Positions 5,201-54,951 of a DNA stretch of 64,000 bases are shown here, piece after piece. The first letter of the stretch is position 1. Every line of letters begins with the position of its first letter. The notes under the pieces were generated by a model, which saw only the letters and a list, made by a program, of their open reading frames with translations, ran no database searches and had not been told where the DNA came from. The DNA is from Trypanosoma brucei (lineage: Eukaryota), in NCBI GenBank assembly GCA_000002445.1, contig CM000208.1, positions 1,152,001-1,216,000 on the forward strand. Direction: 5' to 3'. The position numbers and the translations under genes are program-made.

Positions 5201-6277
5201 TCACGGATAACTGGATAGCGCTGCGAGTGCGCGATTAACAACACGAACCACCATTGTGGTGGCAGTGATCACTTCATTTCCGCCAAAATCAACACCGAGT
5301 CGAAATCCACAAACACGAAGCAATTGGAGAGCCGGCCGTACAGGAGCCAACTTGGTGCAGAAAGCATTCGTAGATGTTTTTAGCAACCGTTTTGATGTGT
5401 CGAACGGGTTGTCACGAATATTCGTTAAAATTGTTCGAAGCATCTTTAAGCATTGTTGTGCCGTGACGGCGTCATTAAAATTTGCTACTGCAGCGGCGAG
5501 TTCCGGAAGGGAAGAGGCAGCCATGGGAGGCTCGTTGGTGAACACCTCATCCAATGATACAGGAGGCGGTGCCGCCAAGCTCTGAAGGTTCCATACCGTA
5601 GGGGCAGTTCCCGTTTGCGACGTGCCATGTTGCCACTGCTCCATGTCCACCTGAGCTAACGCCTGTTCACGCTTTTTACGTGCCTCTTCTTCAATTTCCT
5701 CCTCCGCTTTCCGTCTTGCCTCCTCAGGCATGGAACCCTCGCGAATAAACTTGTCCGTGAGAATTTGTATCCTGACCCGGCGGCGGGCGGCGAGGTCCTG
5801 TTGCTTCTGCTTCCGAACGGCTTCAAGCTCCGCTTCCCTTCGGATCTTATCAAGTTCTTCCTTCACCTCGATAGCCTTTCTGCCCATGGAAACTCGTTTG
5901 CGCTCATCCTCCAGGGCCTGTCTCTTTTCCTCCTCCATCTTGGCTCGTGCTTTCCCGCGAAGTTCCTGCACCTTTGCCTCCCGTTCCGCTTCAGTCAGCA
6001 CCCTTTTCACCCTTACCACAACCTCCACCCCCTCCTCCAGAGGTGTATTGAGCTCGGGATGATCCTCGTGCATTGTTATCCACTGTGTGCAGGTACCTTC
6101 ATCCACACAACCCGCTACTATAGACTTTTTAATTGCGTTTTCACTGAAACCCTTCGCCTGTAGCGATTCAAACAGAGATTGACTTATGTAGTACTTCCTC
6201 TTTTCACTGTCAGAGTGCTCAGAATCACTTTGACAGTCACGTGTACTTACGTCGTGTTCCCCATTTCGGTCAGTCAT
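5201..6277 (-). CDS. UBA-like plus PUB domain protein with a central charged coiled-coil
   Basis: N-terminal UBA-like segment LQAKGFSENAIKKSIVAG...TQWITMHEDHPELN. Long E/K/R-rich coiled-coil. C-terminal PUB-like segment NPFDTSKRLLKTSTNAFCTKLAPVRPALQLLRVCGF. The ORF track start at 6469 adds a hydrophobic junk-like leader; Met at 6277 (MTDRNGEHD) is preferred. Confidence 0.45.
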   Translation of the reverse strand: MTDRNGEHDVSTRDCQSDSEHSDSEKRKYYISQSLFESLQAKGFSENAIKKSIVAGCVDEGTCTQWITMHEDHPELNTPLEEGVEVVVRVKRVLTEAEREAKVQELRGKARAKMEEEKRQALEDERKRVSMGRKAIEVKEELDKIRREAELEAVRKQKQQDLAARRRVRIQILTDKFIREGSMPEEARRKAEEEIEEEARKKREQALAQVDMEQWQHGTSQTGTAPTVWNLQSLAAPPPVSLDEVFTNEPPMAASSLPELAAAVANFNDAVTAQQCLKMLRTILTNIRDNPFDTSKRLLKTSTNAFCTKLAPVRPALQLLRVCGFRLGVDFGGNEVITATTMVVRVVNRALAALSSYP

Positions 6278-6702
6278 CGGCACTATGTCGTCTTCCCCCA
6301 CGCAGACCCCGAAAGAGATGAGCAGTAACGCAACAAAACAATACCAAAGAAAAAAAACGCCAAGCAAAAATCTGTAGTGGTAAAAATACAGATGCAACCC
6401 CAGCGAGGATCTGCCCTGCTGACGTGTATACACGCGTGCATTTTGGACAATTTCACAAAAGGGGGTCAATTAGCACTAGTGGTGTAATGTGGGAACAAAG
6501 CAGCTGAGAAGGGGGATCAAAGGTGTTAAAAATCAAGGAAAGGAGAACAGTGCTGTCTTGCTTTCCCTCTCAAAGGAAAGCACACAAAGGCACACACATC
6601 CACATACATATGCGTGTACCGATATGAATATACGAAAGACGGGTGATGAGGCAGGCATCCGCCGCAGCAGAAAAAAAAAAATGGACTGCTGCCGCCTTTT
6701 AT

Positions 6703-8139
6703 TCACCCGACGGAGGTGCTCGCCTCGGTGGATGACTGCAAGCGGGGCCGCAACGTAATGGTCGATAAACGTGGCTCCCCCAACCTGTTGTACGTACAAC
6801 ACCATACGGCCCGATGGGCACAGGGCTTGTGAACCGCCTCCTCTACCGGCGGGCCTCCAAAGAATGAAAGTATCGCTCGCAACACGGCTTGGTGAGCAAC
6901 AACTAATATTCCTTTGCGTGTAGCATTAAGGTCATACAGGATAGGTACCAGCCGGCGTTTCAGATCGTGGTAAGATTCGCCGTTGGGGTAACGGAACCCA
7001 GCCTTATCTGTGTGACGGAAAAACTGGATACTCGGGTACTGCTCCTTTACCTCGTTGGCTGTCATGTCTTCACACACACCGGCGTGAATCTCGTTTAGCA
7101 TTTTAAATGCCTTTAAGTTTCCATTCGTGAGAACGTCGGCTGAAGGTTGCGCTGTGTGCCTCGTACGCTTCAACTGGCTACACCAAACCTCAAATCCCTC
7201 CGTTTCATCCCATATCGAATCTCTTGTCGCAAAGAGCCGGGGGTTCCGCACCACCTGATCGCGAAAAAACTCCGCCAACGTCAGCGCATCGTCCACACCC
7301 AGAGGCGTAATGTCCGGGTCTCCACCGAGGCGATCCTCCAAATTGTACTCCGACTGCCCATGCCGTGTAAAGAAGAGCGGACACCCCGACCGCAGTGTCT
7401 CCTCGGGGGATCCGGACAGAGGCTCGTGAAGATGAATATGGTGGAGCGTCGGAAGGCAACTGTTGAGGTAACTCGTTATTTTTGCACAGGTGCTACTTCC
7501 ACGGCACTTAGTCAGACGGTAAGCGGGTTGCCTTAAACATACGTTAATATAGCTGCAATCCACTGGATTGCTTTCCCTCCAACTATCCCCAAACCAGATA
7601 TGGCGCACGAAAAGGTTTTCCATGCTCCCAAGCATTTTGTGCACTGTATCGTATGCCGCCTGTGACTCGCAGTCCGCTAGGACTATTACCACCGGTTCCG
7701 TTAAGGTACCGCGCTTTCGAGCTGACTCGACGTGCTCGAGCGATTTTGCCAAACACGTTTCCATGCATTTCCTCCACGCAGCAGCATCATCTTCATGTCG
7801 ATAGACGTTAAAATCCCGCGGCGAGGGGCCGGCAAGAAAAAAAGCAGCGTCCTTATAACACCAAAGAAGATAGTGAAGGAGTTTCGTGCAGAAGAACCGC
7901 GCCACCAGACCGCAGTTCGGGGGGGAGCTCACCAGGACAAACACTGCGCTCACAGAAGTACTTAAACTACTTCCAGGCACATTCTCGCTGCCTTCCCTCT
8001 GGCACCAGGGAGGGGCGGTAAAAGCGTACTCATCTGCTCGATTAAATGGTCCGACAAAACGACAGAAGTCAATCGAATTCTCCTCGAGTCGATCACTAAT
8101 TTTGATGTTACTTTGCAAAGGGATCGTTGACTGAGTCAT
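6703..8139 (-). CDS. 6-phosphofructo-2-kinase/fructose-2,6-bisphosphatase-like protein
   Basis: C-terminal histidine-phosphatase (PGAM-family) domain with the RHG motif (LFFTRHGQSEYN) and second catalytic His region (ILVVAHQAVLRAIL), as in FBPase-2. N-terminal half resembles the 6PF2K domain, but I cannot find a Walker A P-loop. Confidence 0.7.
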   Translation of the reverse strand: MTQSTIPLQSNIKISDRLEENSIDFCRFVGPFNRADEYAFTAPPWCQREGSENVPGSSLSTSVSAVFVLVSSPPNCGLVARFFCTKLLHYLLWCYKDAAFFLAGPSPRDFNVYRHEDDAAAWRKCMETCLAKSLEHVESARKRGTLTEPVVIVLADCESQAAYDTVHKMLGSMENLFVRHIWFGDSWRESNPVDCSYINVCLRQPAYRLTKCRGSSTCAKITSYLNSCLPTLHHIHLHEPLSGSPEETLRSGCPLFFTRHGQSEYNLEDRLGGDPDITPLGVDDALTLAEFFRDQVVRNPRLFATRDSIWDETEGFEVWCSQLKRTRHTAQPSADVLTNGNLKAFKMLNEIHAGVCEDMTANEVKEQYPSIQFFRHTDKAGFRYPNGESYHDLKRRLVPILYDLNATRKGILVVAHQAVLRAILSFFGGPPVEEAVHKPCAHRAVWCCTYNRLGEPRLSTITLRPRLQSSTEASTSVG

Positions 8140-8473
8140 ATAATCTCACACCCCACTCCTACTTGCGCTATTCACACATAGGTAACAAAAGAGACGTGTT
8201 TACGAGCATACTCACTAGCAGTATTACAATTTCATCCATACATGCAAAGTAAAGAAGGGCACTCAAAAGCATCCCCTGCAACGCAAGAACACCTTTGACA
8301 AAAAATGTTACAGAGCGAATACACGCACCCGCTCATATACGTGTATATAGTCACACCTACGTACGAATGCACACGCACGTACGGTTCCACACACTTACAG
8401 AACCACACAAAACAACATGTCATTAACAACAACTCCAACAATCATCGACACGGCAAACCGCATTGCAAGTCGG

Positions 8474-9337
8474 CTACCGCTTCCCATCCTCCAACATCAT
8501 CTTCTGAATGATTTCATCCTTCTGCTGTAGTAACTCACGGCGCCTTTGATCCGTAAGAGCCGGCACGAACGCGCGTGAAGCTGATCTCCGTTGCTTGTGA
8601 CTGTCACCCTTCATGACGAAACGGTAGCCAAACTTCAGAAATGCAAAGACCATTAACATTATAACCAATGGAACCGGCGACTCGGAGTCCTCCCCTTCAG
8701 CTCTGTTGATCCTAAAAATAGCACTGCAGTTACTCGTTTTCCCAGCGAGCAGAAACACTATGAGGAATCTGTCACTTTTCATACCCTCAATCCAATATCC
8801 TTGCAAATTGAACGGTGCCCTTGCGCATCCACTATCATCAGCAGGGATATGCAACGGTTGCGGTTCTCTTAGCAAGCCACCAAGCTTCGTCTCCCCGCGT
8901 TCCTGTAGCAGCGGGATCAACTTCGCGTCGGTGCAGTTGGAGAGGCGAAGGCCGTCGACCGTTATTTTCATCCTCAGTGAATCCGGTAATGTCAGTGACC
9001 ACTCAGTAGGAACACACTGAACAGATTGATCCGCCTCGTTCGTAAAAATAGAGAAGAAACTGACGACTGACATGACGGCATTCGACAAAACACTTTGCAA
9101 GACCTCACGCCGTAACAGTACTTCCTCGCTCGATACCTCCAACACGAAACCCGTACGCTGCGGCTGGTTACCGGAAAGCCAAAAAACACTCCAATTCCCT
9201 TTCATTTTTCCGTAGAAAACGCTCCTGTCTGAAACGGCTGCAACCGAAGAGGCCTTCACAGTCCTCCAACTACAAACACCCACAACCGTGACGAAGAGAG
9301 ACAGCACCACCCATCCCCTCCAGCTTGCATTCATCAT
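8474..9337 (-). CDS. Hypothetical membrane or secretory protein
   Basis: N-terminal signal-peptide-like segment (WVVLSLFVTVVGVCS), several N-glycosylation sequons, and a C-proximal hydrophobic segment (LVIMLMVFAFLKFGY). No known domain recognised. Confidence 0.4.
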   Translation of the reverse strand: MMNASWRGWVVLSLFVTVVGVCSWRTVKASSVAAVSDRSVFYGKMKGNWSVFWLSGNQPQRTGFVLEVSSEEVLLRREVLQSVLSNAVMSVVSFFSIFTNEADQSVQCVPTEWSLTLPDSLRMKITVDGLRLSNCTDAKLIPLLQERGETKLGGLLREPQPLHIPADDSGCARAPFNLQGYWIEGMKSDRFLIVFLLAGKTSNCSAIFRINRAEGEDSESPVPLVIMLMVFAFLKFGYRFVMKGDSHKQRRSASRAFVPALTDQRRRELLQQKDEIIQKMMLEDGKR

Positions 9338-50059: not shown

Positions 50060-50260
50060 CGCCCTAATACTACGCAGTATAAAAGGGCAAGGATGCAGCG
50101 GCGTCAGGCAGCAGATAAGTGTCCCCACACTCACCACGCAGGGACACACAAATGGGGGAGGAACAGTTCGCAACAATACCAAACGATACTATGAGCATAT
50201 AAACCTGTCACACACGAAAATCCCACTGGAGGAGAACGTGGCACACAAATTCGACCCCGC

Positions 50261-51350
50261 TCAGATGGTAAACCAGACAGTGACATCTCACTTTACAAAA
50301 AACTCAAAAAGAACGCAGCAGATGACAAATCGTCACGGCAATTTCACAATATGAGGTGGGCGGAGAATGGATGAAGGAAAGAGATAGTAGTCATAACGGT
50401 GGGCTCATTGTAACTATGACATGTTGTATTCGTAAATAATCATACGGTAAGGTCACCAAAAATAATACGTGTTGGAATCACTGCACAATAAACCGTCTGA
50501 CAGCCTATTCCTATGTACTAGCCAAGATGGGAAAGGTAATACATACGCACATGCGAAATTGCTCAGTCGGTAAGTCATGTAACATCTCACTTTACAAAAA
50601 ACTCAAAAAGAACGCAGCAGATGACAAATCGTCACGGCAATTTCACAATATGAGGTGGGTGGAGAATGGATGAAGGAAAGAGATAGTAGTCATAACGGTG
50701 GGCTCATTGTAACTATGACATGTTGTATTCGTAAATAATCATGCGGTAAGGTCACCAAAAATAATACGTGTTGGAATCACTGCACAATAAACCGTCTGAC
50801 AGCCTATTCCTATGTACTAGCCAAGATGGGAAAGGTAATACATACGCACATGCGAAATTGCTCAGTCGGTAAGTCATGTAACATCTCACTTTACAAAAAA
50901 CTCAAAAAGAACGCAGCAGATGACAAATCGTCACGGCAATTTCACAATATGAGGTGGGCGGAGAATGGATGAAGGAAAGAGATAGTAGTCATAACGGTGG
51001 GCTCATTGTAACTATGACATGTTGTATTCGTAAATAATCATGCGGTAAGGTCACCAAAAATAATACGTGTTGGAATCACTGCACAATAAACCGTGTGACA
51101 GCCTATTCCTATGTACTAGCCAAGATGGGAAAGGCAGACGTATAAACCCAATGCCGCTCAGTTTCTTGTGTCTCAGTGACATCCTACTTTAAACGTCAGT
51201 TCAAACAGAACGCATTTATTGACAGGGCATCATAGCGGCGATCAAACTAAGGTAGCGCAGTGACAGCTAACTCATTGTAACTATAACATGTTATATTCGT
51301 AAATAATCATACGGTAAGGTCACCAAAAACAATACGTGTTGGAACCGCAG
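50261..51350. repeat. Tandem array of a roughly 298-bp repeat: three near-identical copies plus a degenerate fourth
   Basis: Copies start at 50284, 50582 and 50882 (periods 298 and 300), about 99% identical with 1-2 substitutions each. A fourth copy at about 51181-51350 is diverged but keeps a roughly 75-nt core (ctcattgtaactat.acatgtt.tattcgtaaataatcatacggtaaggtcaccaaaaa.aatacgtgttggaa). No ORF on either strand. Confidence 0.9.
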
Positions 51351-51658
51351 CTTGGTGCAATAACTTGGAAAATCACAGCTCCCAGTATCTAGCCGTAAGA
51401 TCGGTACCAACCGTGGCGGCTCCGCAACCGTTGGTACCGACGCTACCGGGGCAGGGCAACGTCCGTTACAGGCATAACGCTGCAGCGATCCTTTGGCAAG
51501 CAAAGCTACGGAAAAAAGAAACACAACCAAGAGATGTGCCACCATGCGCTCGAAAGTTTATGAGTTCAGTAAACAGTCGGACAAAAGAGACTATCCCTAC
51601 ATCTCAAGCACATTAACACACGGTGGGGTTGCACAGGCCTGTACAAAACGTAATTATG

Positions 51659-51659
<1 letters not shown>

Positions 51660-51698
<39 letters not shown>
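51660..51698. repeat. (TA)19 microsatellite
   Basis: Perfect at-repeat in the 3' flank of the 52085-53830 gene. Confidence 0.9.
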
Positions 51699-51701
<3 letters not shown>

Positions 51702-51970
51702 CTGCTGTGACCTAAAGAAAAAAGTGAATAGAAAGAACGGGAAAACCGAAAGGCAGGGACGTCGATGTGTGACAGAAGGAGATGCCCTCTACCGACCCAC
51801 CCGCTCATCCATCCTAGAACGTATAAGATTTTGTACATTCCAGCCACGGCAGCACGCTCCTAGCAACCAAGAAAAATAAAATGTAGTTTGTGCAAACGGT
51901 TATGCAGCGTCCCCACCACCAAAAAAGAAAAAGGTAAACCAAAGCAAACAAAGGCGGGGGAGCATAAACG

Positions 51971-51975
<5 letters not shown>

Positions 51976-52004
<29 letters not shown>
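51976..52004. repeat. (AT)n microsatellite
   Basis: Second at-repeat about 80 nt downstream of the stop of the 52085-53830 gene. Confidence 0.85.
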
Positions 52005-52009
<5 letters not shown>

Positions 52010-52084
52010 GGGGGACCAACAAGAGCCCTCGCAAGTACTTGAAACGAAACTAAAGGAGAAATAAGGGAAAGCACAGGCCCACAC

Positions 52085-53830
52085 CTACGCAGAAGAACAT
52101 TGACTTGTATCCAATAACTGATACGGATCGTACCAAATCGGAACCGACACACCCCCGAGGTCCACACCCGCAGCTTTACGAAGAGCCTTACGCCACTCCG
52201 CCTGACCGTCCTCGCAATACTTCGCCTTGCGGTCCATGAAGTTGTTTACGTCCCCCTCCGCTTCAGGATCCGGTAGCGTAAGAAACTCCGTAGGAAGCCG
52301 CCTGCAGCGGGAATTGGAAACACAGAGCTGGGGCTTGACCGAGTGTCCATCGCTGGAAGCTACTTTTTGCTCGAGCCCCTCGCGGCCCGTTGGCGGACGC
52401 TTCACACGGGCAGGTTGCTCTAGATCCCGATGCGAAGGCATGAGCACGTACCGAGCTTCGAGCTCCCTCACTAAGTTTGTCCACTTCTCACGCTCTCCCT
52501 TTGGAATTACTTCGATGTTCCGAAGCCAGTCCAGGTTCCGCCGGCCTCGGCCGTTCAGGTCACGCAGCCATGACTGGCGACTCTCGGTACCCCATGACAT
52601 AAGTCGCATCCGGAGCAGCTTCTCCACAAGACCAAAAAGAAATTTAAATTGGCATCCCCACTTGGGTTCACCCACGAAACGTCGCAGGACAGCTATTCCA
52701 CCGTTACCTTCAAACGAACGTTGAATGCTCTCGTCAGATTCCACAATGATGTCCGTTAAACTTTCTGCCTGCTCGGCGGAGTCACATACCTGACATAGAC
52801 GAACAAAAGTCAGTACCATGTTTGATCTATCCTCTCCCAATCCCCTCGCTGAAGGGCTCCCCATGATTTGTGTCAATTTTTCCCTCCAGCGTGTTCGTCT
52901 AGGTGAAAAGTCGTCTACCTGTTTTGCCATAGCGGGTACGACAGGGTGTTCCATGTTTATCCTCTGCTGGATTCTAGTGGCTGGTGGATAACACATGCTA
53001 CTGGCGTGTGAGTTCGAGCAGGAAGGAGTGGAATCCGTAACCCCTCCCATGCTCTCGCCTCTGGATGTACCGTCCGTGTTAGCGAGTACGGTAACCTCCG
53101 TTGTTTTCATACTTAGCCACGATCCACTCCGGAGGTAGTTTTCTACACCTTGGCGCCTGTGGGAAGCGGATGGGAAGCGCACATTCGACGCCATGCTAAG
53201 GTTTTGGTATCGTGTCCCCCCTTTCCGCCAGTCAAGGAACTTTGTATGATATGTTTGCTCCGAAAAGACACCCCCAGGTATACCCGATTCGGAGATTAGG
53301 AAATAAATAAACTGTTTGACCACCTCGTCCCACTTGGGGCGGTTTTCTTCAGATATGACATCGTAGAGTAACTTTAACATGTCGCAGCTAGTCGCGTAAG
53401 AGATCGCCAGTCCGCTCTTGTTTCCCCATGTATACCGGGGTTTTTTTACACCATTCTTCACCGCCTGAACAGCCTGCTTTTCATACTCCAAACGTACCTG
53501 TTGAAGGAACATCTCAACAGCCACTCGAAAATAGTCAACAACTCTGTAATGGCCGTCTGGAAAACTATCATAGTTGGAAGCAACATACCGGACTACGTTA
53601 CGCGCAGAAGGGGAAACATGAATAACACTATCGTCGGGTTTTAGGAACTGTAGATTTGGGTTTCGCTTAACATTGCGGAACACTGGGTCATGACCGGAAA
53701 CTGAGGAAGTTTCACCAGAGAAAACGCTCGTTGCACCCTCTGATATCTGTCTGCTAGTGCGGGAACCGACTGAGCTTGGCGCGCTACTCAGAGAACTCTT
53801 ATATGAAGTGTCATACCCCGACGAACCCAT
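52085..53830 (-). CDS. Hypothetical protein of about 580 aa
   Basis: Long ORF. The ORF track start at 54052 passes through Cys/Val/Leu junk; Met at 53830 (MGSSGYDTSY) is preferred. No domain recognised. Confidence 0.5.
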   Translation of the reverse strand: MGSSGYDTSYKSSLSSAPSSVGSRTSRQISEGATSVFSGETSSVSGHDPVFRNVKRNPNLQFLKPDDSVIHVSPSARNVVRYVASNYDSFPDGHYRVVDYFRVAVEMFLQQVRLEYEKQAVQAVKNGVKKPRYTWGNKSGLAISYATSCDMLKLLYDVISEENRPKWDEVVKQFIYFLISESGIPGGVFSEQTYHTKFLDWRKGGTRYQNLSMASNVRFPSASHRRQGVENYLRSGSWLSMKTTEVTVLANTDGTSRGESMGGVTDSTPSCSNSHASSMCYPPATRIQQRINMEHPVVPAMAKQVDDFSPRRTRWREKLTQIMGSPSARGLGEDRSNMVLTFVRLCQVCDSAEQAESLTDIIVESDESIQRSFEGNGGIAVLRRFVGEPKWGCQFKFLFGLVEKLLRMRLMSWGTESRQSWLRDLNGRGRRNLDWLRNIEVIPKGEREKWTNLVRELEARYVLMPSHRDLEQPARVKRPPTGREGLEQKVASSDGHSVKPQLCVSNSRCRRLPTEFLTLPDPEAEGDVNNFMDRKAKYCEDGQAEWRKALRKAAGVDLGGVSVPIWYDPYQLLDTSQCSSA

Positions 53831-54537
53831 GTTAAGCGCTCTAACACACCTACAACAAAAAAGAGAAAGGAAAAAAGAGATTACGTATATCCGACGGGGC
53901 AACAACAGCAAAGTATAACAGATGCAACACAACACACGAGGCACATGCCGAGGTTGAGGTGCCGATACCCAAGGAGGTAATATTAAAATAATGTAACACA
54001 TAAACTTCTGCACGTGAACTTCCCGAACAAACACAAACACACAAACACACACAGAAGATAATCAGACAGCTCTTATTTCCCTCACACATTTGAGTTCACA
54101 CTACTCTATAACATGGAACGGAACAAAGTGGAACTTCAGCACGCAGAGAATACAAGAAAAACAAATTACCACTGGAGGTGTGTATAAAACAAAAATAAAC
54201 GTCCGCCAGAGAGAGAGAGATAGAGGGAAAGAGGCGATGTATCTGAAAATAATACCACTTCCGCGTAGGGGAGTTGAATGTAAGCAAATATATATACGAT
54301 GTACTAGGTGTACAGTCATAACGGATGTCTGTACATATATATATATACTATGGCATTGCGGTAACAGCACACGACCCGACGCGGCACGCCAAGGAGTAAA
54401 AGATAGAACAATAATTAAAATTTAAAAAAAAAACACCTCTGTTCTGGCACATTCCCTCTCTCTTTACTGCTCGGGCACTAATCGAAGGGGTACGGGTCTC
54501 CACTATGTGCATCACCGAATGTAACGGCGGGCACACC

Positions 54538-54951
54538 TTATTTACGGAATGACACTACACGATCAAGGATGGTGCGCCCAATGAGTATCTGGGCCTTCAG
54601 CCTCGCCAGCATTCGGTGATCAGCGAGGGTGCCGGTCCCGTCGCTGCTGCACACAATCAAACTCGGCATCAACATCTGAGGATGGCCACGTGAAGTTACT
54701 GCGGATGCGGGGGGGCTCAAGGAATCAAGAATCGTTGTGGAGAGCGACATTACATCTTCCTCCCCGCCTTTTCCCGTATCGCTTCCGATACGTTCCCAAC
54801 GCATGAGGGCCATTCTGTAGAAGCAAAGCAACTCTCTTGGATCAGCACCGGGTTCGATCCTGATTCCATCAAGTGCGCACAATGCCTCCAGGTGAACGAC
54901 TGGTGTAACGCGCTGATCCCTTAACAGAGCAAACATGTCAATTACCTGCAT
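54538..54951 (-). CDS. Hypothetical small protein (possibly roadblock/longin-like fold)
   Basis: 137-aa ORF. Weak resemblance of SLIVCSSDGTGTLADHRM to the roadblock/LC7 GIIVVNTEGIPI segment. Not secure. Confidence 0.35.
   Translation of the reverse strand: MQVIDMFALLRDQRVTPVVHLEALCALDGIRIEPGADPRELLCFYRMALMRWERIGSDTGKGGEEDVMSLSTTILDSLSPPASAVTSRGHPQMLMPSLIVCSSDGTGTLADHRMLARLKAQILIGRTILDRVVSFRK

What the first reader, a model, noticed from the sequence alone, without database searches (positions are those of the whole stretch)
50261..51350. Non-coding roughly 298-bp tandem repeat array with a conserved 75-nt core
Three near-identical direct copies (about 99%) plus a decayed fourth lie between two genes, with no ORF on either strand. 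Period (298-300 bp), location (inside a transcription unit) and composition differ from dinucleotide microsatellites, the 177-bp minichromosomal satellite and ingi/RIME elements. In trypanosomatids, intra-unit tandem repeats of a few hundred bp are the typical organisation of snoRNA and other small-RNA clusters. The decayed fourth copy keeps only one roughly 75-nt block intact, which suggests purifying selection on a sub-element. On the + strand that block is flanked by a possible 4-bp terminal stem (ggct...agcc) with a CUGA (D-box-like) near its 3' end. I could not find a convincing canonical C box (RUGAUGA) or an H/ACA AGA box, so the RNA class is open.
Basis: partly seen in the sequence, partly recalled or inferred. 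Interest (0 to 1): 0.65.

Follow-up and report, generated by a model that had tools for sequence, protein, structure and literature searches.

The report
Trypanosome box C/D snoRNA gene cluster

Summary
There are 2.8 copies of a 299-bp unit at 99% identity (50283-51134) plus an older, diverged unit (about 51140-51354). They lie between two minus-strand genes and contain no ORF longer than 51 aa.

The genes are on the MINUS strand, which is the strand of the surrounding T. brucei chromosome 10 polycistron. Each unit encodes two box C/D snoRNAs.

- Its 13-nt D-guide is invariant from Trypanosoma to Leishmania and Leptomonas.
- It pairs perfectly with the helix-69 loop of LSU rRNA and places the methyl on LSU-beta A520 (yeast Am2256; snR63/U46 equivalent).
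- The literature assigns that site to TB10Cs7C2.

2. The second is an ~85-nt C/D snoRNA (C = GUGACGA, D = CUGA, 6-bp terminal stem).
- In T. brucei its D' guide pairs 13 bp with 5.8S rRNA and predicts the mapped Am43.

The same two-gene tandem unit sits downstream of the JBP3 orthologue in T. cruzi, T. vivax, T. grayi and L. donovani. Copy number differs in T. b. equiperdum.

Verdict: a known kind, almost certainly a known locus, and low interest.

The parts
50998..51084 (-). Core box C/D snoRNA, copy 1 of the 99% repeats (probable TB10Cs7C2). C box GTGATTC at 51079-51073. D-guide GTCATAGTTAC at 51018-51008. D box ATGA at 51006-51003.
   Evidence: Profile search hit at 51083-50998, E = 5.5e-21. 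Boxes and guide are invariant in the 10-sequence, 7-species alignment. The guide makes a perfect 11-bp duplex with the LSU H69 loop.
50699..50785 (-). Core box C/D snoRNA, copy 2.
   Evidence: Profile hit at 50784-50699, E = 5.5e-21. 99% repeat copy.
50400..50486 (-). Core box C/D snoRNA, copy 3.
   Evidence: Profile hit at 50485-50400, E = 1.9e-20. Repeat copy.
51267..51354 (-). D', C', guide and D box are kept, but the C box is mutated (GCGGTTC) and the guide has C>U (a G.U-compatible change). It may be a pseudogene, or it may use an upstream GTGATTT.
   Evidence: Profile hit at 51351-51270, E = 1.1e-17. Alignments.
51152..51239 (-). Second box C/D snoRNA, ancestral type. C box ATGATGC, conserved D' guide ...TGCGTTCTGTTTGAA followed by CTGA, D box CTGA, 6-bp terminal stem GCCGCT/AGCGGC (as folded).
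   Evidence: C/D scan. Fold -26.4 kcal/mol, z = -2.8, closed by the terminal stem. The guide is conserved in T. cruzi, T. vivax, T. grayi and L. donovani. 9-bp perfect pairing to LSU-alpha UCAAACAGA.
50856..50940 (-). Second box C/D snoRNA, T. brucei-derived type, full copy 1. C box GTGACGA. D' guide TGCTGCGTTCTTT followed by TTGA, antisense to 5.8S rRNA. D box CTGA. Terminal stem AATTGC/GCAATT.
   Evidence: C/D scan. Sub-threshold Rfam SNORD33-like hit showing the C/D architecture. 13-bp duplex with 5.8S GAAGAACGCAGCA, flush to the D' box, in 13 of 13 rDNA contigs.
50557..50641 (-). Second box C/D snoRNA, derived type, full copy 2.
50255..50342 (-). Second box C/D snoRNA, last copy. The 5' half comes from the repeat and carries the 5.8S guide. 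The 3' half is unique and resembles the ancestral copy. The terminal stem is weak.
   Evidence: This is the only derived copy present in T. b. equiperdum.
50941..50997 (-). Pyrimidine-rich spacer between the two snoRNA genes (also at 50642-50698 and 50343-50399). It is unstructured.
   Evidence: Fold -1.1 kcal/mol. The equivalent spacer is pyrimidine-rich but not sequence-conserved in T. cruzi and T. vivax.
50788..50855 (-). T. brucei-specific segment between the second snoRNA and the next core copy (also at about 50489-50556, and partly at 51087-51151). It ends in ...GGCTGTCAGACGG (AGA; ACA in the first copy). It is a possible but unsupported H/ACA-like RNA.
   Evidence: Fold z = -0.6 with no pseudouridylation pocket. 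T. cruzi and T. vivax units are about 40 nt shorter and have no counterpart. The 5' arm lies in the repeat junction, which T. b. equiperdum lacks.

Best explanation
The array is a tandemly repeated snoRNA gene cluster of Trypanosoma brucei chromosome 10. It lies between the JBP3 orthologue and a ~136-aa gene, on the minus strand of the window.

Inferred from established trypanosomatid biology: it is transcribed by RNA polymerase II as part of the surrounding polycistron. The precursor is trimmed to individual ~85-nt box C/D snoRNAs that assemble with NOP1/fibrillarin, NOP56, NOP58 and SNU13.

Shown here by sequence analysis: each unit encodes two guide RNAs.

- It has an invariant guide, UGUCAUAGUUACA, directly upstream of its D box.
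- The guide pairs with the LSU helix-69 loop (GUAACUAUGAC).
- By the fifth-nucleotide rule it directs 2'-O-methylation of LSU-beta A520, the equivalent of yeast Am2256 (snR63) and human U46.
- It is very probably the catalogued TB10Cs7C2.

snoRNA 2 descends from an ancestral snoRNA whose D' guide pairs with LSU-alpha GGAGUCAAACAGA.
- In the T. brucei 299-bp units its D' guide has changed to UGCUGCGUUCUUU.
- This pairs 13 bp with 5.8S rRNA and predicts methylation of A43, a mapped NOP1-dependent Nm site.

Tandem duplication sets gene dosage. Copy number varies between T. brucei lineages through unequal recombination.
For: Organism and context
- The 655-aa ORF is 99% identical to T. b. equiperdum DPX39_100053600, and its L. 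donovani orthologue is named JBP3.
- All neighbouring genes are on the minus strand.

Synteny
- The order JBP3, gap, ~130-aa gene, saposin/GDSL lipase, PIP5K is conserved in T. cruzi, T. vivax and T. grayi.
- The gap carries same-strand homologues of both snoRNAs.
- These are tandemly repeated in T. cruzi (258 bp), T. vivax (262-bp spacing between the two copies) and L. donovani (446 bp). L. pyrrhocoris has five copies.

Box architecture
- In the 10-sequence alignment the invariant columns fall in the C box (UGAUUC), D' (GUGA), C' (UGA) and the block UGU.AUAGUUACAAUGA.
- A C/D scan gives 4 hits on the minus strand and 0 on the plus strand of the intergenic region.
- With a stricter stem rule, 3 of the 4 hits in the whole 64-kb window (both strands) fall inside the array.

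Targets
- The core guide makes a perfect 11-bp duplex with the H69 loop in every LSU-bearing kinetoplastid-type rDNA contig, starting at guide position 2.
- Anchoring A520 on the predicted A reproduces 17 of 17 published LSU-beta Nm nucleotides. The total is 114/119 at shift 0 and at most 53/119 at any shifted anchor (using Table 2 of PMC9283944).
- That table names TB10Cs7C2 as the guide of LSUb_520.
- Plasmodium PFS14 has the same guide in the same register and is assigned to yeast Am2256 / snR63 / U46.
- snoRNA 2 makes a 13-bp duplex with 5.8S, flush to UUGA, in 13 of 13 contigs. The 5.8S numbering was verified against the published 5.8S Nm sites: positions 41, 43 and 75 match in all seven contigs and all five sites in four. 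The same 12-mer is the ITS1-BR 5.8S primer. Am43 is a mapped, NOP1-dependent site.

Structure
- Both snoRNA bodies are unstructured (z about 0 to +0.8), as expected for guide RNAs.
Against: - There are no expression data here. Discrete ~85-nt RNAs, their ends and snoRNP association are inferred, not shown.
- The core snoRNA has non-canonical C and D boxes and no convincing terminal stem. Rfam has no family matching either RNA at gathering score.
- I could not obtain the published TB10Cs7C2 sequence (Liang 2005 and Rajan 2020 are not held). The name therefore rests on chromosome plus target site, not on sequence identity.
- The published table credits 5.8S Am43 to another snoRNA, TB6Cs1'C1.
- The rDNA used for target tests comes from environmental kinetoplastid-type contigs, not from T. 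brucei itself.
- No target was found for the T. brucei core D' guide or for the D guides of snoRNA 2.
- The ancestral D' guide's fifth-nucleotide position (A762 by my numbering) is not a listed Nm site.
Confidence: 0.9

Rival explanations
1. One reading: a ~75-nt structured small RNA of unknown class on the plus strand, closed by a 4-bp ggct/agcc stem, with a D-like CUGA near its 3' end.
For: A plus-strand CUGA and the 4-bp complementarity do exist in the sequence. The plus-strand fold of the core is marginally lower in energy (-14.0 against -11.4 kcal/mol).
Against: - The plus strand is antisense to the transcription unit.
- Its fold is no better than shuffled sequence (z = +1.0).
- No C/D candidate was found on the plus strand of the intergenic region.
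- On the plus strand the conserved 11-mer has the same sense as rRNA, so it cannot guide.
- The cross-species conservation pattern fits minus-strand C, D', C' and D boxes.
Confidence: 0.02
2. A neutral tandem satellite or recent segmental duplication with no RNA product. The conserved block would reflect recent gene conversion rather than selection.
For: Copy number is polymorphic: T. b. equiperdum has the old unit plus only one 299-bp unit. The 99% identity between copies shows recent homogenisation.
Against: - The two elements are conserved at the syntenic site across Trypanosoma, Leishmania and Leptomonas, while the spacers are not.
- The invariant 13-mer is exactly antisense to a known rRNA methylation site, in the correct register to a box.
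Confidence: 0.03
3. In addition to the two C/D genes, the T. brucei-specific ~65-nt segment ending ...GGCUGUCAGACGG encodes a single-hairpin H/ACA-like (AGA-box) pseudouridylation guide. Each unit would then carry three snoRNAs.
For: - An AGA sits 3 nt before a plausible 3' end, and in the first copy it is ACA, which is also a valid box.
- The T. brucei unit is about 40 nt longer than the T. cruzi and T. vivax units.
- Mixed C/D plus H/ACA clusters are typical of trypanosomatids (PMC3273796).
- H/ACA loci named TB10Cs7'H1 exist in the catalogue.
Against: - The fold is not better than shuffles (z = -0.6). The best structure is an 11-bp stem with an 11-nt loop and no internal pocket.
- The 5' arm lies in the repeat junction. 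It is missing from the first copy and from T. b. equiperdum.
- There is no counterpart in other species.
Confidence: 0.15
4. The repeat is a cis-acting element of the JBP3 mRNA 3' UTR, or an RNA-processing signal, rather than a set of independent genes.
For: The array lies 0.7-1.8 kb downstream of the JBP3 stop codon. Some T. brucei snoRNA clusters lie in annotated 3' UTRs (PMC3273796). The spacers are pyrimidine-rich.
Against: The conserved parts are precisely the box and guide elements, not the spacers. Location in a UTR does not exclude snoRNA processing, and the literature reports that such UTR-located snoRNAs are processed.
Confidence: 0.02

Closest known systems
T. brucei snoRNA cluster TB10Cs7, snoRNA TB10Cs7C2 (Michaeli-laboratory catalogue; listed as the guide of LSU-beta Am520 in PMC9283944, Table 2)
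   Same: Both are on chromosome 10, both are box C/D, and the guide predicts exactly LSU-beta A520.
   Different: Nothing is known to differ. Sequence identity could not be checked because the catalogue sequences are not in the held library.
Yeast snR63, human SNORD46 (U46) and Plasmodium falciparum PFS14, the guides for the helix-69 Am (yeast 25S Am2256)
   Same: Same target nucleotide. PFS14 shares the 11-nt antisense element GUCAUAGUUAC in the same register, one nucleotide before the D box.
   Different: - There is no detectable sequence-family relationship (no Rfam hit).
- The trypanosomatid RNA uses non-canonical C (RUGAUUC) and D (AUGA) boxes.
- In most trypanosomatids it is a double guide with a second target, in the SSU or elsewhere in the LSU.
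- It is encoded in a tandem polycistronic cluster rather than as an intronic or monocistronic gene.
TB6Cs1'C1, the snoRNA credited with 5.8S Am41 and Am43 in T. brucei (PMC9283944)
   Same: snoRNA 2 of this array is predicted to target the same 5.8S segment, at A43.
   Different: - It is at a different locus (chromosome 6 by its name).
- snoRNA 2 derives from an ancestral gene with a different D' guide (LSU-alpha) that is retained in other species and in the old T. brucei unit.
- Whether the two act redundantly is unknown.
Generic trypanosomatid reiterated snoRNA clusters (for example TB9Cs2, TB10Cs1 and the Leptomonas collosoma clusters)
   Same: Tandem repeats of a few hundred bp inside Pol II polycistrons, several snoRNAs per repeat, and processing from a polycistronic precursor (PMC3273796).
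   Different: This unit appears to hold only C/D genes (two per unit). Many clusters mix C/D and H/ACA-like genes.

Membership tests
Box C/D snoRNA (core snoRNA, 50998-51084 minus strand and its copies) | C box (RUGAUGA) near the 5' end and D box (CUGA) near the 3' end | tested here: inconclusive
   Motifs occupy the right positions but deviate from consensus: C = GUGAUUC (RUGAUUC in all 7 species) and D = AUGA (invariant). Their invariance across genera argues that they are functional boxes. They would fail a strict consensus scan, and indeed they were not picked up by the scan.
Box C/D snoRNA (core snoRNA) | Antisense element of at least 10 nt ending next to the D or D' box, with the fifth nucleotide opposite a 2'-O-methylated rRNA residue | tested here: met
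   Perfect 11-bp duplex with the LSU H69 loop, starting at position 2 from the D box. The fifth nucleotide faces LSU-beta A520, a mapped Nm. The anchoring reproduces 17 of 17 published sites.
Box C/D snoRNA (core snoRNA) | Internal D' and C' boxes | tested here: met
   GUGA (D') and UGAU / UGAG (C') are invariant or nearly so in the alignment. In Leishmania, T. cruzi and T. grayi the guide upstream of D' pairs 11-12 bp with the SSU.
Box C/D snoRNA (core snoRNA) | Short terminal stem bringing the C and D boxes together | tested here: inconclusive
   Only about 3 bp (GUG/CAC) can be drawn. The minimum-free-energy fold uses guide nucleotides instead.
Box C/D snoRNA (second snoRNA, 50856-50940 and 51152-51239, minus strand) | C box, D box and terminal stem | tested here: met
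   C = GUGACGA or AUGAUGC (at most 1 mismatch), D = CUGA, with a 5-6-bp terminal stem. Homologues in 5 species keep the boxes. A sub-threshold SNORD33-like Rfam alignment shows the same architecture.
Box C/D snoRNA (second snoRNA) | Antisense element in register with a mapped Nm | tested here: met
   Derived T. brucei copies: a 13-bp duplex (1 G.U) with 5.8S, flush to D' UUGA, points to A43, a mapped Nm. Ancestral copies: 9 bp to LSU-alpha, but the fifth nucleotide faces A762, which is not a listed Nm. The feature is therefore met for the derived copies and not shown for the ancestral ones.
Box C/D snoRNA (both) | Expressed as a discrete ~70-100-nt RNA bound by fibrillarin/NOP1, NOP56, NOP58 and SNU13, and dependent on NOP58 | not testable with these tools
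TB10Cs7 / TB10Cs7C2 (a specific catalogued T. brucei snoRNA) | Located on chromosome 10 and guides LSU-beta Am520 | tested here: met
   Chromosome 10 follows from the orthologue's locus tag. The target is A520. The table entry reads LSUb_520 = TB10Cs7C2.
TB10Cs7 / TB10Cs7C2 | Sequence identity with the published snoRNA | not testable with these tools
   The catalogue papers and supplements that carry the sequences are not held. Sequence strings were not found in the supplements that are held.
Rfam snoRNA families (snR63, SNORD46, trypanosomatid snoTBR families) | Score at or above the family's gathering threshold | tested here: not met
   No hit at gathering score anywhere in the window. The only hit is SNORD33-like at 23 bits against a gathering score of 44. 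The relationship to snR63 and U46 is functional (same target), not family membership.
Trypanosomatid H/ACA-like (AGA-box) snoRNA, for the segment 50788-50855 minus strand | Single stable hairpin with an internal pseudouridylation pocket, and AGA or ACA 3 nt from the 3' end | tested here: not met
   AGA (ACA in one copy) is present. However, the fold is not better than shuffles (z = -0.6), there is no pocket, and the 5' arm is absent from the first copy and from T. b. equiperdum.

The most novel reading that the evidence does not exclude
After tandem duplication in the T. brucei lineage, the second snoRNA of the unit was retargeted. Its ancestral D' guide pairs with LSU-alpha and is still present in T. 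cruzi, T. vivax, T. grayi, L. donovani and the old T. brucei unit. It mutated into a 13-bp guide for 5.8S A43.

If so, this array would be the real or a redundant guide for 5.8S Am43. The literature currently credits that site, together with Am41 two nucleotides away, to a single other snoRNA (TB6Cs1'C1). A single guide obeying the fifth-nucleotide rule does not readily explain two sites 2 nt apart.

Copy-number differences between T. brucei subspecies (3 derived copies here, 1 in T. b. equiperdum) would then change the dosage of a 5.8S methylation guide.
Probability: 0.3. Interest if true: 0.35.

Novelty: already known. Interest (0 to 1): 0.15.

Why it matters
For annotating this window, the result turns an "unknown non-coding repeat" into eight box C/D snoRNA gene copies with defined strand, boundaries and rRNA targets. 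The targets are the helix-69 Am, which is conserved across eukaryotes, and probably 5.8S Am43.

Biologically it is an ordinary example of how trypanosomatids encode snoRNAs. Two points have modest wider interest:
- The helix-69 guide works with non-canonical C and D boxes that are invariant from Trypanosoma to Leishmania.
- The second snoRNA shows a clean case of guide turnover after duplication, with copy-number polymorphism inside T. brucei.

Neither point changes current understanding.

Tried and rejected
Database and literature searches that found nothing useful
- Rfam at gathering threshold on the whole window found nothing. Rfam in E-value mode gave only a sub-threshold SNORD33-like hit, plus AT-microsatellite artefacts (mir-297 and similar).
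- I searched the held papers and supplements for the snoRNA sequences and found no sequence match. The search did reveal that TGCTGCGTTCTT is the 5.8S ITS1-BR primer.
- The key catalogue papers are not held: Liang 2005, Barth 2008 and Rajan 2020.
- Rfam on the seven rDNA contigs together failed internally. On L009 alone it found only 5.8S. I therefore identified the LSU and SSU regions by conserved motifs and by the 17/17 Nm-nucleotide test instead.

Ideas tested and dropped
- My first guess for the H69 Am was LSU-beta A622 / TB10Cs2'C1. TB10Cs2'C1 is snoGRUMPY and its primer sequence is absent from the window. Proper anchoring gives A520.
- The H/ACA-like reading of the T. brucei-specific segment is not supported by folding or conservation. 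The names 'TB10Cs-7H1' and 'TB10Cs7'H1' refer to other loci, so they do not support it either.
- The plus-strand model was rejected.

Target searches and locus fetches that gave nothing
- For the T. brucei core D' guide and for the D guides of snoRNA 2, there is no consistent complementarity in the rDNA contigs.
- The T. conorhini contig ends 146 bp after JBP3, and the T. melophagium protein is not on record.
Full report
**1. The observation**

The repeat exists as described. Tandem Repeats Finder reports one array at 50283-51134: period 299, 2.8 copies, 99% matches, no indels, score 1683. It is the only tandem repeat scoring at least 150 in the whole window.

An 81-nt block occurs four times, at 50404-50484, 50703-50783 and 51002-51082 (99-100%) and at 51271-51351 (93%). 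The last spacing is 269 rather than 299 bp.

No ORF longer than 51 aa lies inside the array. All substantial flanking ORFs are on the minus strand.

**2. Organism and context**

The 655-aa ORF upstream (52085-54052, minus) is 99% identical to T. brucei equiperdum DPX39_100053600, a chromosome 10 locus tag. Its L. donovani orthologue is named JBP3, and it has a weak Pfam hit to the JBP1 DNA-binding domain.

The gene order is JBP3, a gap of about 1 kb, a ~130-aa gene, a saposin/GDSL lipase, then PIP5K. This order is conserved in T. cruzi, T. vivax and T. grayi.

Because the whole neighbourhood is minus-strand, I read the repeat on the minus strand.

**3. What the unit contains**

On the minus strand each unit holds two elements with box C/D architecture.

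- Homologues were found by BLAST and pattern search at the syntenic gap, on the same strand, in T. cruzi, T. vivax, T. grayi, L. donovani and Leptomonas pyrrhocoris.
- In a 10-sequence alignment the invariant columns fall in four blocks: UGAUUC (C box), GUGA (D'), UGA (C') and UGU.AUAGUUACAAUGA (guide plus D box). The sequence between the blocks varies freely.
- A profile built from that alignment finds exactly four copies in the window, all on the minus strand, with E-values from 1e-17 to 5e-21.

*(b) A second C/D gene.*
- A simple scan (C box with at most 1 mismatch, CUGA, terminal stem of at least 4 bp) finds it four times on the minus strand of the intergenic region and never on the plus strand.
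- With a stem of at least 5 bp, three of the four hits in the entire 64-kb window (both strands) are these copies.
- The copy in the old unit (51239-51152) is canonical: AUGAUGC ... CUGA ... CUGA, with a 6-bp terminal stem and fold z = -2.8.
- The copies in the 299-bp units have C = GUGACGA, D = CUGA and the terminal stem AAUUGC/GCAAUU.
- Homologues in T. cruzi, T. vivax, T. grayi and L. donovani share the boxes and the guide GCGUUCUGUUUGA(A/G) followed by C(U/C)GA.

The spacer between the two genes is pyrimidine-rich and unstructured. It is not conserved in sequence.

**4. Targets**

The held literature confirms three points about the core guide.
- GTAACTATGAC is 28S rDNA (GGGAGTAACTATGACTCTCTT).
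- Plasmodium snoRNA PFS14 carries GUCAUAGUUAC one nucleotide before its D box, the same register as here.
- PFS14 is assigned to Pf 28S Am2551, which is yeast Am2256, with snR63 and U46 as its yeast and human counterparts.

To test pairing on kinetoplastid rRNA, I retrieved kinetoplastid-type rDNA contigs from metagenomes using a 5.8S pattern.

*Core guide.*
- It forms a perfect 11-bp Watson-Crick duplex with the helix-69 loop in every contig that reaches the LSU. The duplex starts at guide position 2.
- The fifth-nucleotide rule therefore selects the second A of GUAAC.
- I anchored T. brucei LSU-beta position 520 on that A. With this anchor, all 17 published LSU-beta Nm sites between 377 and 728 (Table 2 of PMC9283944) fall on the correct nucleotide in six of six full-length contigs. 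The total is 114/119 at shift 0, against at most 53/119 for shifts of -4 to +4.
- The table gives TB10Cs7C2 as the guide of LSUb_520. The window is chromosome 10, so the core is very probably TB10Cs7C2.

*Other guides of the core family.* In Leishmania, Leptomonas, T. cruzi and T. grayi the same snoRNA also carries a D' guide that pairs 11-12 bp with SSU GAAAGCAUGGGA. The T. vivax D' guide pairs with LSU AUGAAUGGAUU. The T. brucei D' guide has no match.

*Second snoRNA, derived T. brucei form.*
- UGCUGCGUUCUUU followed by UUGA pairs 13 bp (one G.U) with 5.8S GAAGAACGCAGCA in 13 of 13 contigs. The duplex is flush with the box, which places the methyl on A43.
- The 5.8S numbering was checked against the published 5.8S Nm sites: positions 41, 43 and 75 match in all seven contigs and all five sites in four.
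- The same 12-mer is the ITS1-BR primer in trypanosome 5.8S.
- 5.8S Am43 is a mapped, NOP1-dependent site. The table credits it to TB6Cs1'C1.

*Second snoRNA, ancestral form.* It pairs 9 bp with LSU-alpha UCAAACAGA, in the conserved GGACCAAGGAGUCAAACAGA region. The predicted position is A762 by my numbering, which is not a listed Nm site. That function is therefore not established.

**5. Evolution of the array**

T. cruzi has a 258-bp unit (1.9 copies) and T. vivax has two copies 262 bp apart. L. donovani has a 446-bp unit (2.2 copies), and L. pyrrhocoris has five core copies. Tandem reiteration at this site is therefore ancestral or recurrent.

In T. b. equiperdum the gap is about 600 bp shorter. 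It contains the old unit plus a single 299-bp unit, without the repeat-junction segment. Copy number is therefore polymorphic within T. brucei, as expected from unequal recombination, although assembly collapse cannot be fully excluded.

The old-unit core copy has a mutated C box (GCGGUUC) and a G.U-compatible guide change. It may be a pseudogene.

**6. What is not supported**

*The plus-strand model.* The fold is no better than shuffles (z = +1.0), there are no boxes, and the conserved 11-mer has rRNA sense on that strand.

*An H/ACA-like gene in the T. brucei-specific ~65-nt segment.* An AGA (ACA in one copy) is suitably placed. Against this, the fold has z = -0.6 and no pocket, the 5' arm is missing from the first copy and from T. 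b. equiperdum, and other species have no counterpart.

*Rfam membership.* Rfam has no family for either RNA. The relationship to snR63 and U46 is one of shared target, not demonstrated homology.

**7. Mechanism**

Shown here:
- gene strand;
- box layout;
- cross-genus conservation;
- guide-target complementarity in register with mapped Nm sites.

Inferred from established trypanosomatid snoRNA biology (PMC3273796):
- Pol II polycistronic transcription;
- nucleolytic release of individual snoRNAs;
- assembly with NOP1, NOP56, NOP58 and SNU13;
- methyl transfer to LSU-beta A520 and, probably, 5.8S A43.

**8. Novelty and score**

This is a standard trypanosomatid snoRNA cluster and, by target and chromosome, a catalogued one (TB10Cs7). 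The only possibly unreported aspect is the lineage-specific retargeting of the second snoRNA to 5.8S A43 and its variable dosage.

Interest is low (0.15).

Noticed in passing
window 51401-51440 (folded as 51385-51450, minus strand): A very stable hairpin lies about 45 nt upstream, in the direction of transcription, of the first snoRNA copy. Its 19-nt arms are 89% complementary, with -34.7 kcal/mol and z = -4.4. It is followed by CUAGAUAC, with AGA 3 nt from the end, but it has no internal pocket, so it is not a convincing H/ACA-like RNA. T. grayi has an unrelated strong hairpin (z = -5.6) 4 nt upstream of its core copy, and T. cruzi has none. It could be a processing or boundary element.
   Followed up: partly
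window 52085-54052 (minus strand): The upstream gene is the T. brucei orthologue of JBP3, the base-J-binding protein 3 linked to Pol II termination. Evidence is a weak Pfam DB_JBP1 hit and an L. donovani orthologue named JBP3. The snoRNA cluster sits directly downstream of it in all trypanosomatids examined.
   Followed up: partly
window 51661-51698 and 51975-52004: Two perfect (AT)n microsatellites, of 19 and 15 units, lie between the JBP3 stop codon and the snoRNA array. Their lengths differ in T. b. equiperdum (17 and 13 units). They produce spurious miRNA-like Rfam hits.
   Followed up: no
L008 (T. b. equiperdum) 5918-7336, compared with window 50060-52084: The T. b. equiperdum assembly has only one 299-bp unit where this window has 2.8. 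Its single derived second snoRNA has UUGA instead of CUGA as the D box (ACCATTTGAGCGG). This snoRNA may therefore be decaying in that lineage.
   Followed up: partly
L005 (T. conorhini contig MKKU01000270.1): The contig ends 146 bp after the JBP3 stop codon. The assembly probably broke at the tandem snoRNA repeat.
   Followed up: no
L007 (Leptomonas pyrrhocoris), 6035-9228: Five copies of the helix-69 guide snoRNA, in two alternating flank contexts, lie in a 3.2-kb gap downstream of JBP3. TRF did not call this array, which implies a larger or composite repeat unit.
   Followed up: no
L081, L091 and L104 (metagenome rDNA contigs), just 3' of the H69 motif: In three kinetoplastid-type rDNA contigs the LSU sequence diverges abruptly 4-8 nt after GTAACTATGAC (TCTC|AACCTTCATC... 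and TCTCTTAA|AAGGAAACC...). The break falls at or near the classic R2-type insertion site in 28S. Possible explanations are insertions, introns or chimeric assemblies.
   Followed up: no
window 54610-54685 (plus strand): This is the only other C/D-like pattern hit in the 64-kb window (GTGATCA ... CTGA with a 5-bp stem). It lies antisense to the coding strand and has no rDNA complementarity, so it is most likely chance.
   Followed up: partly
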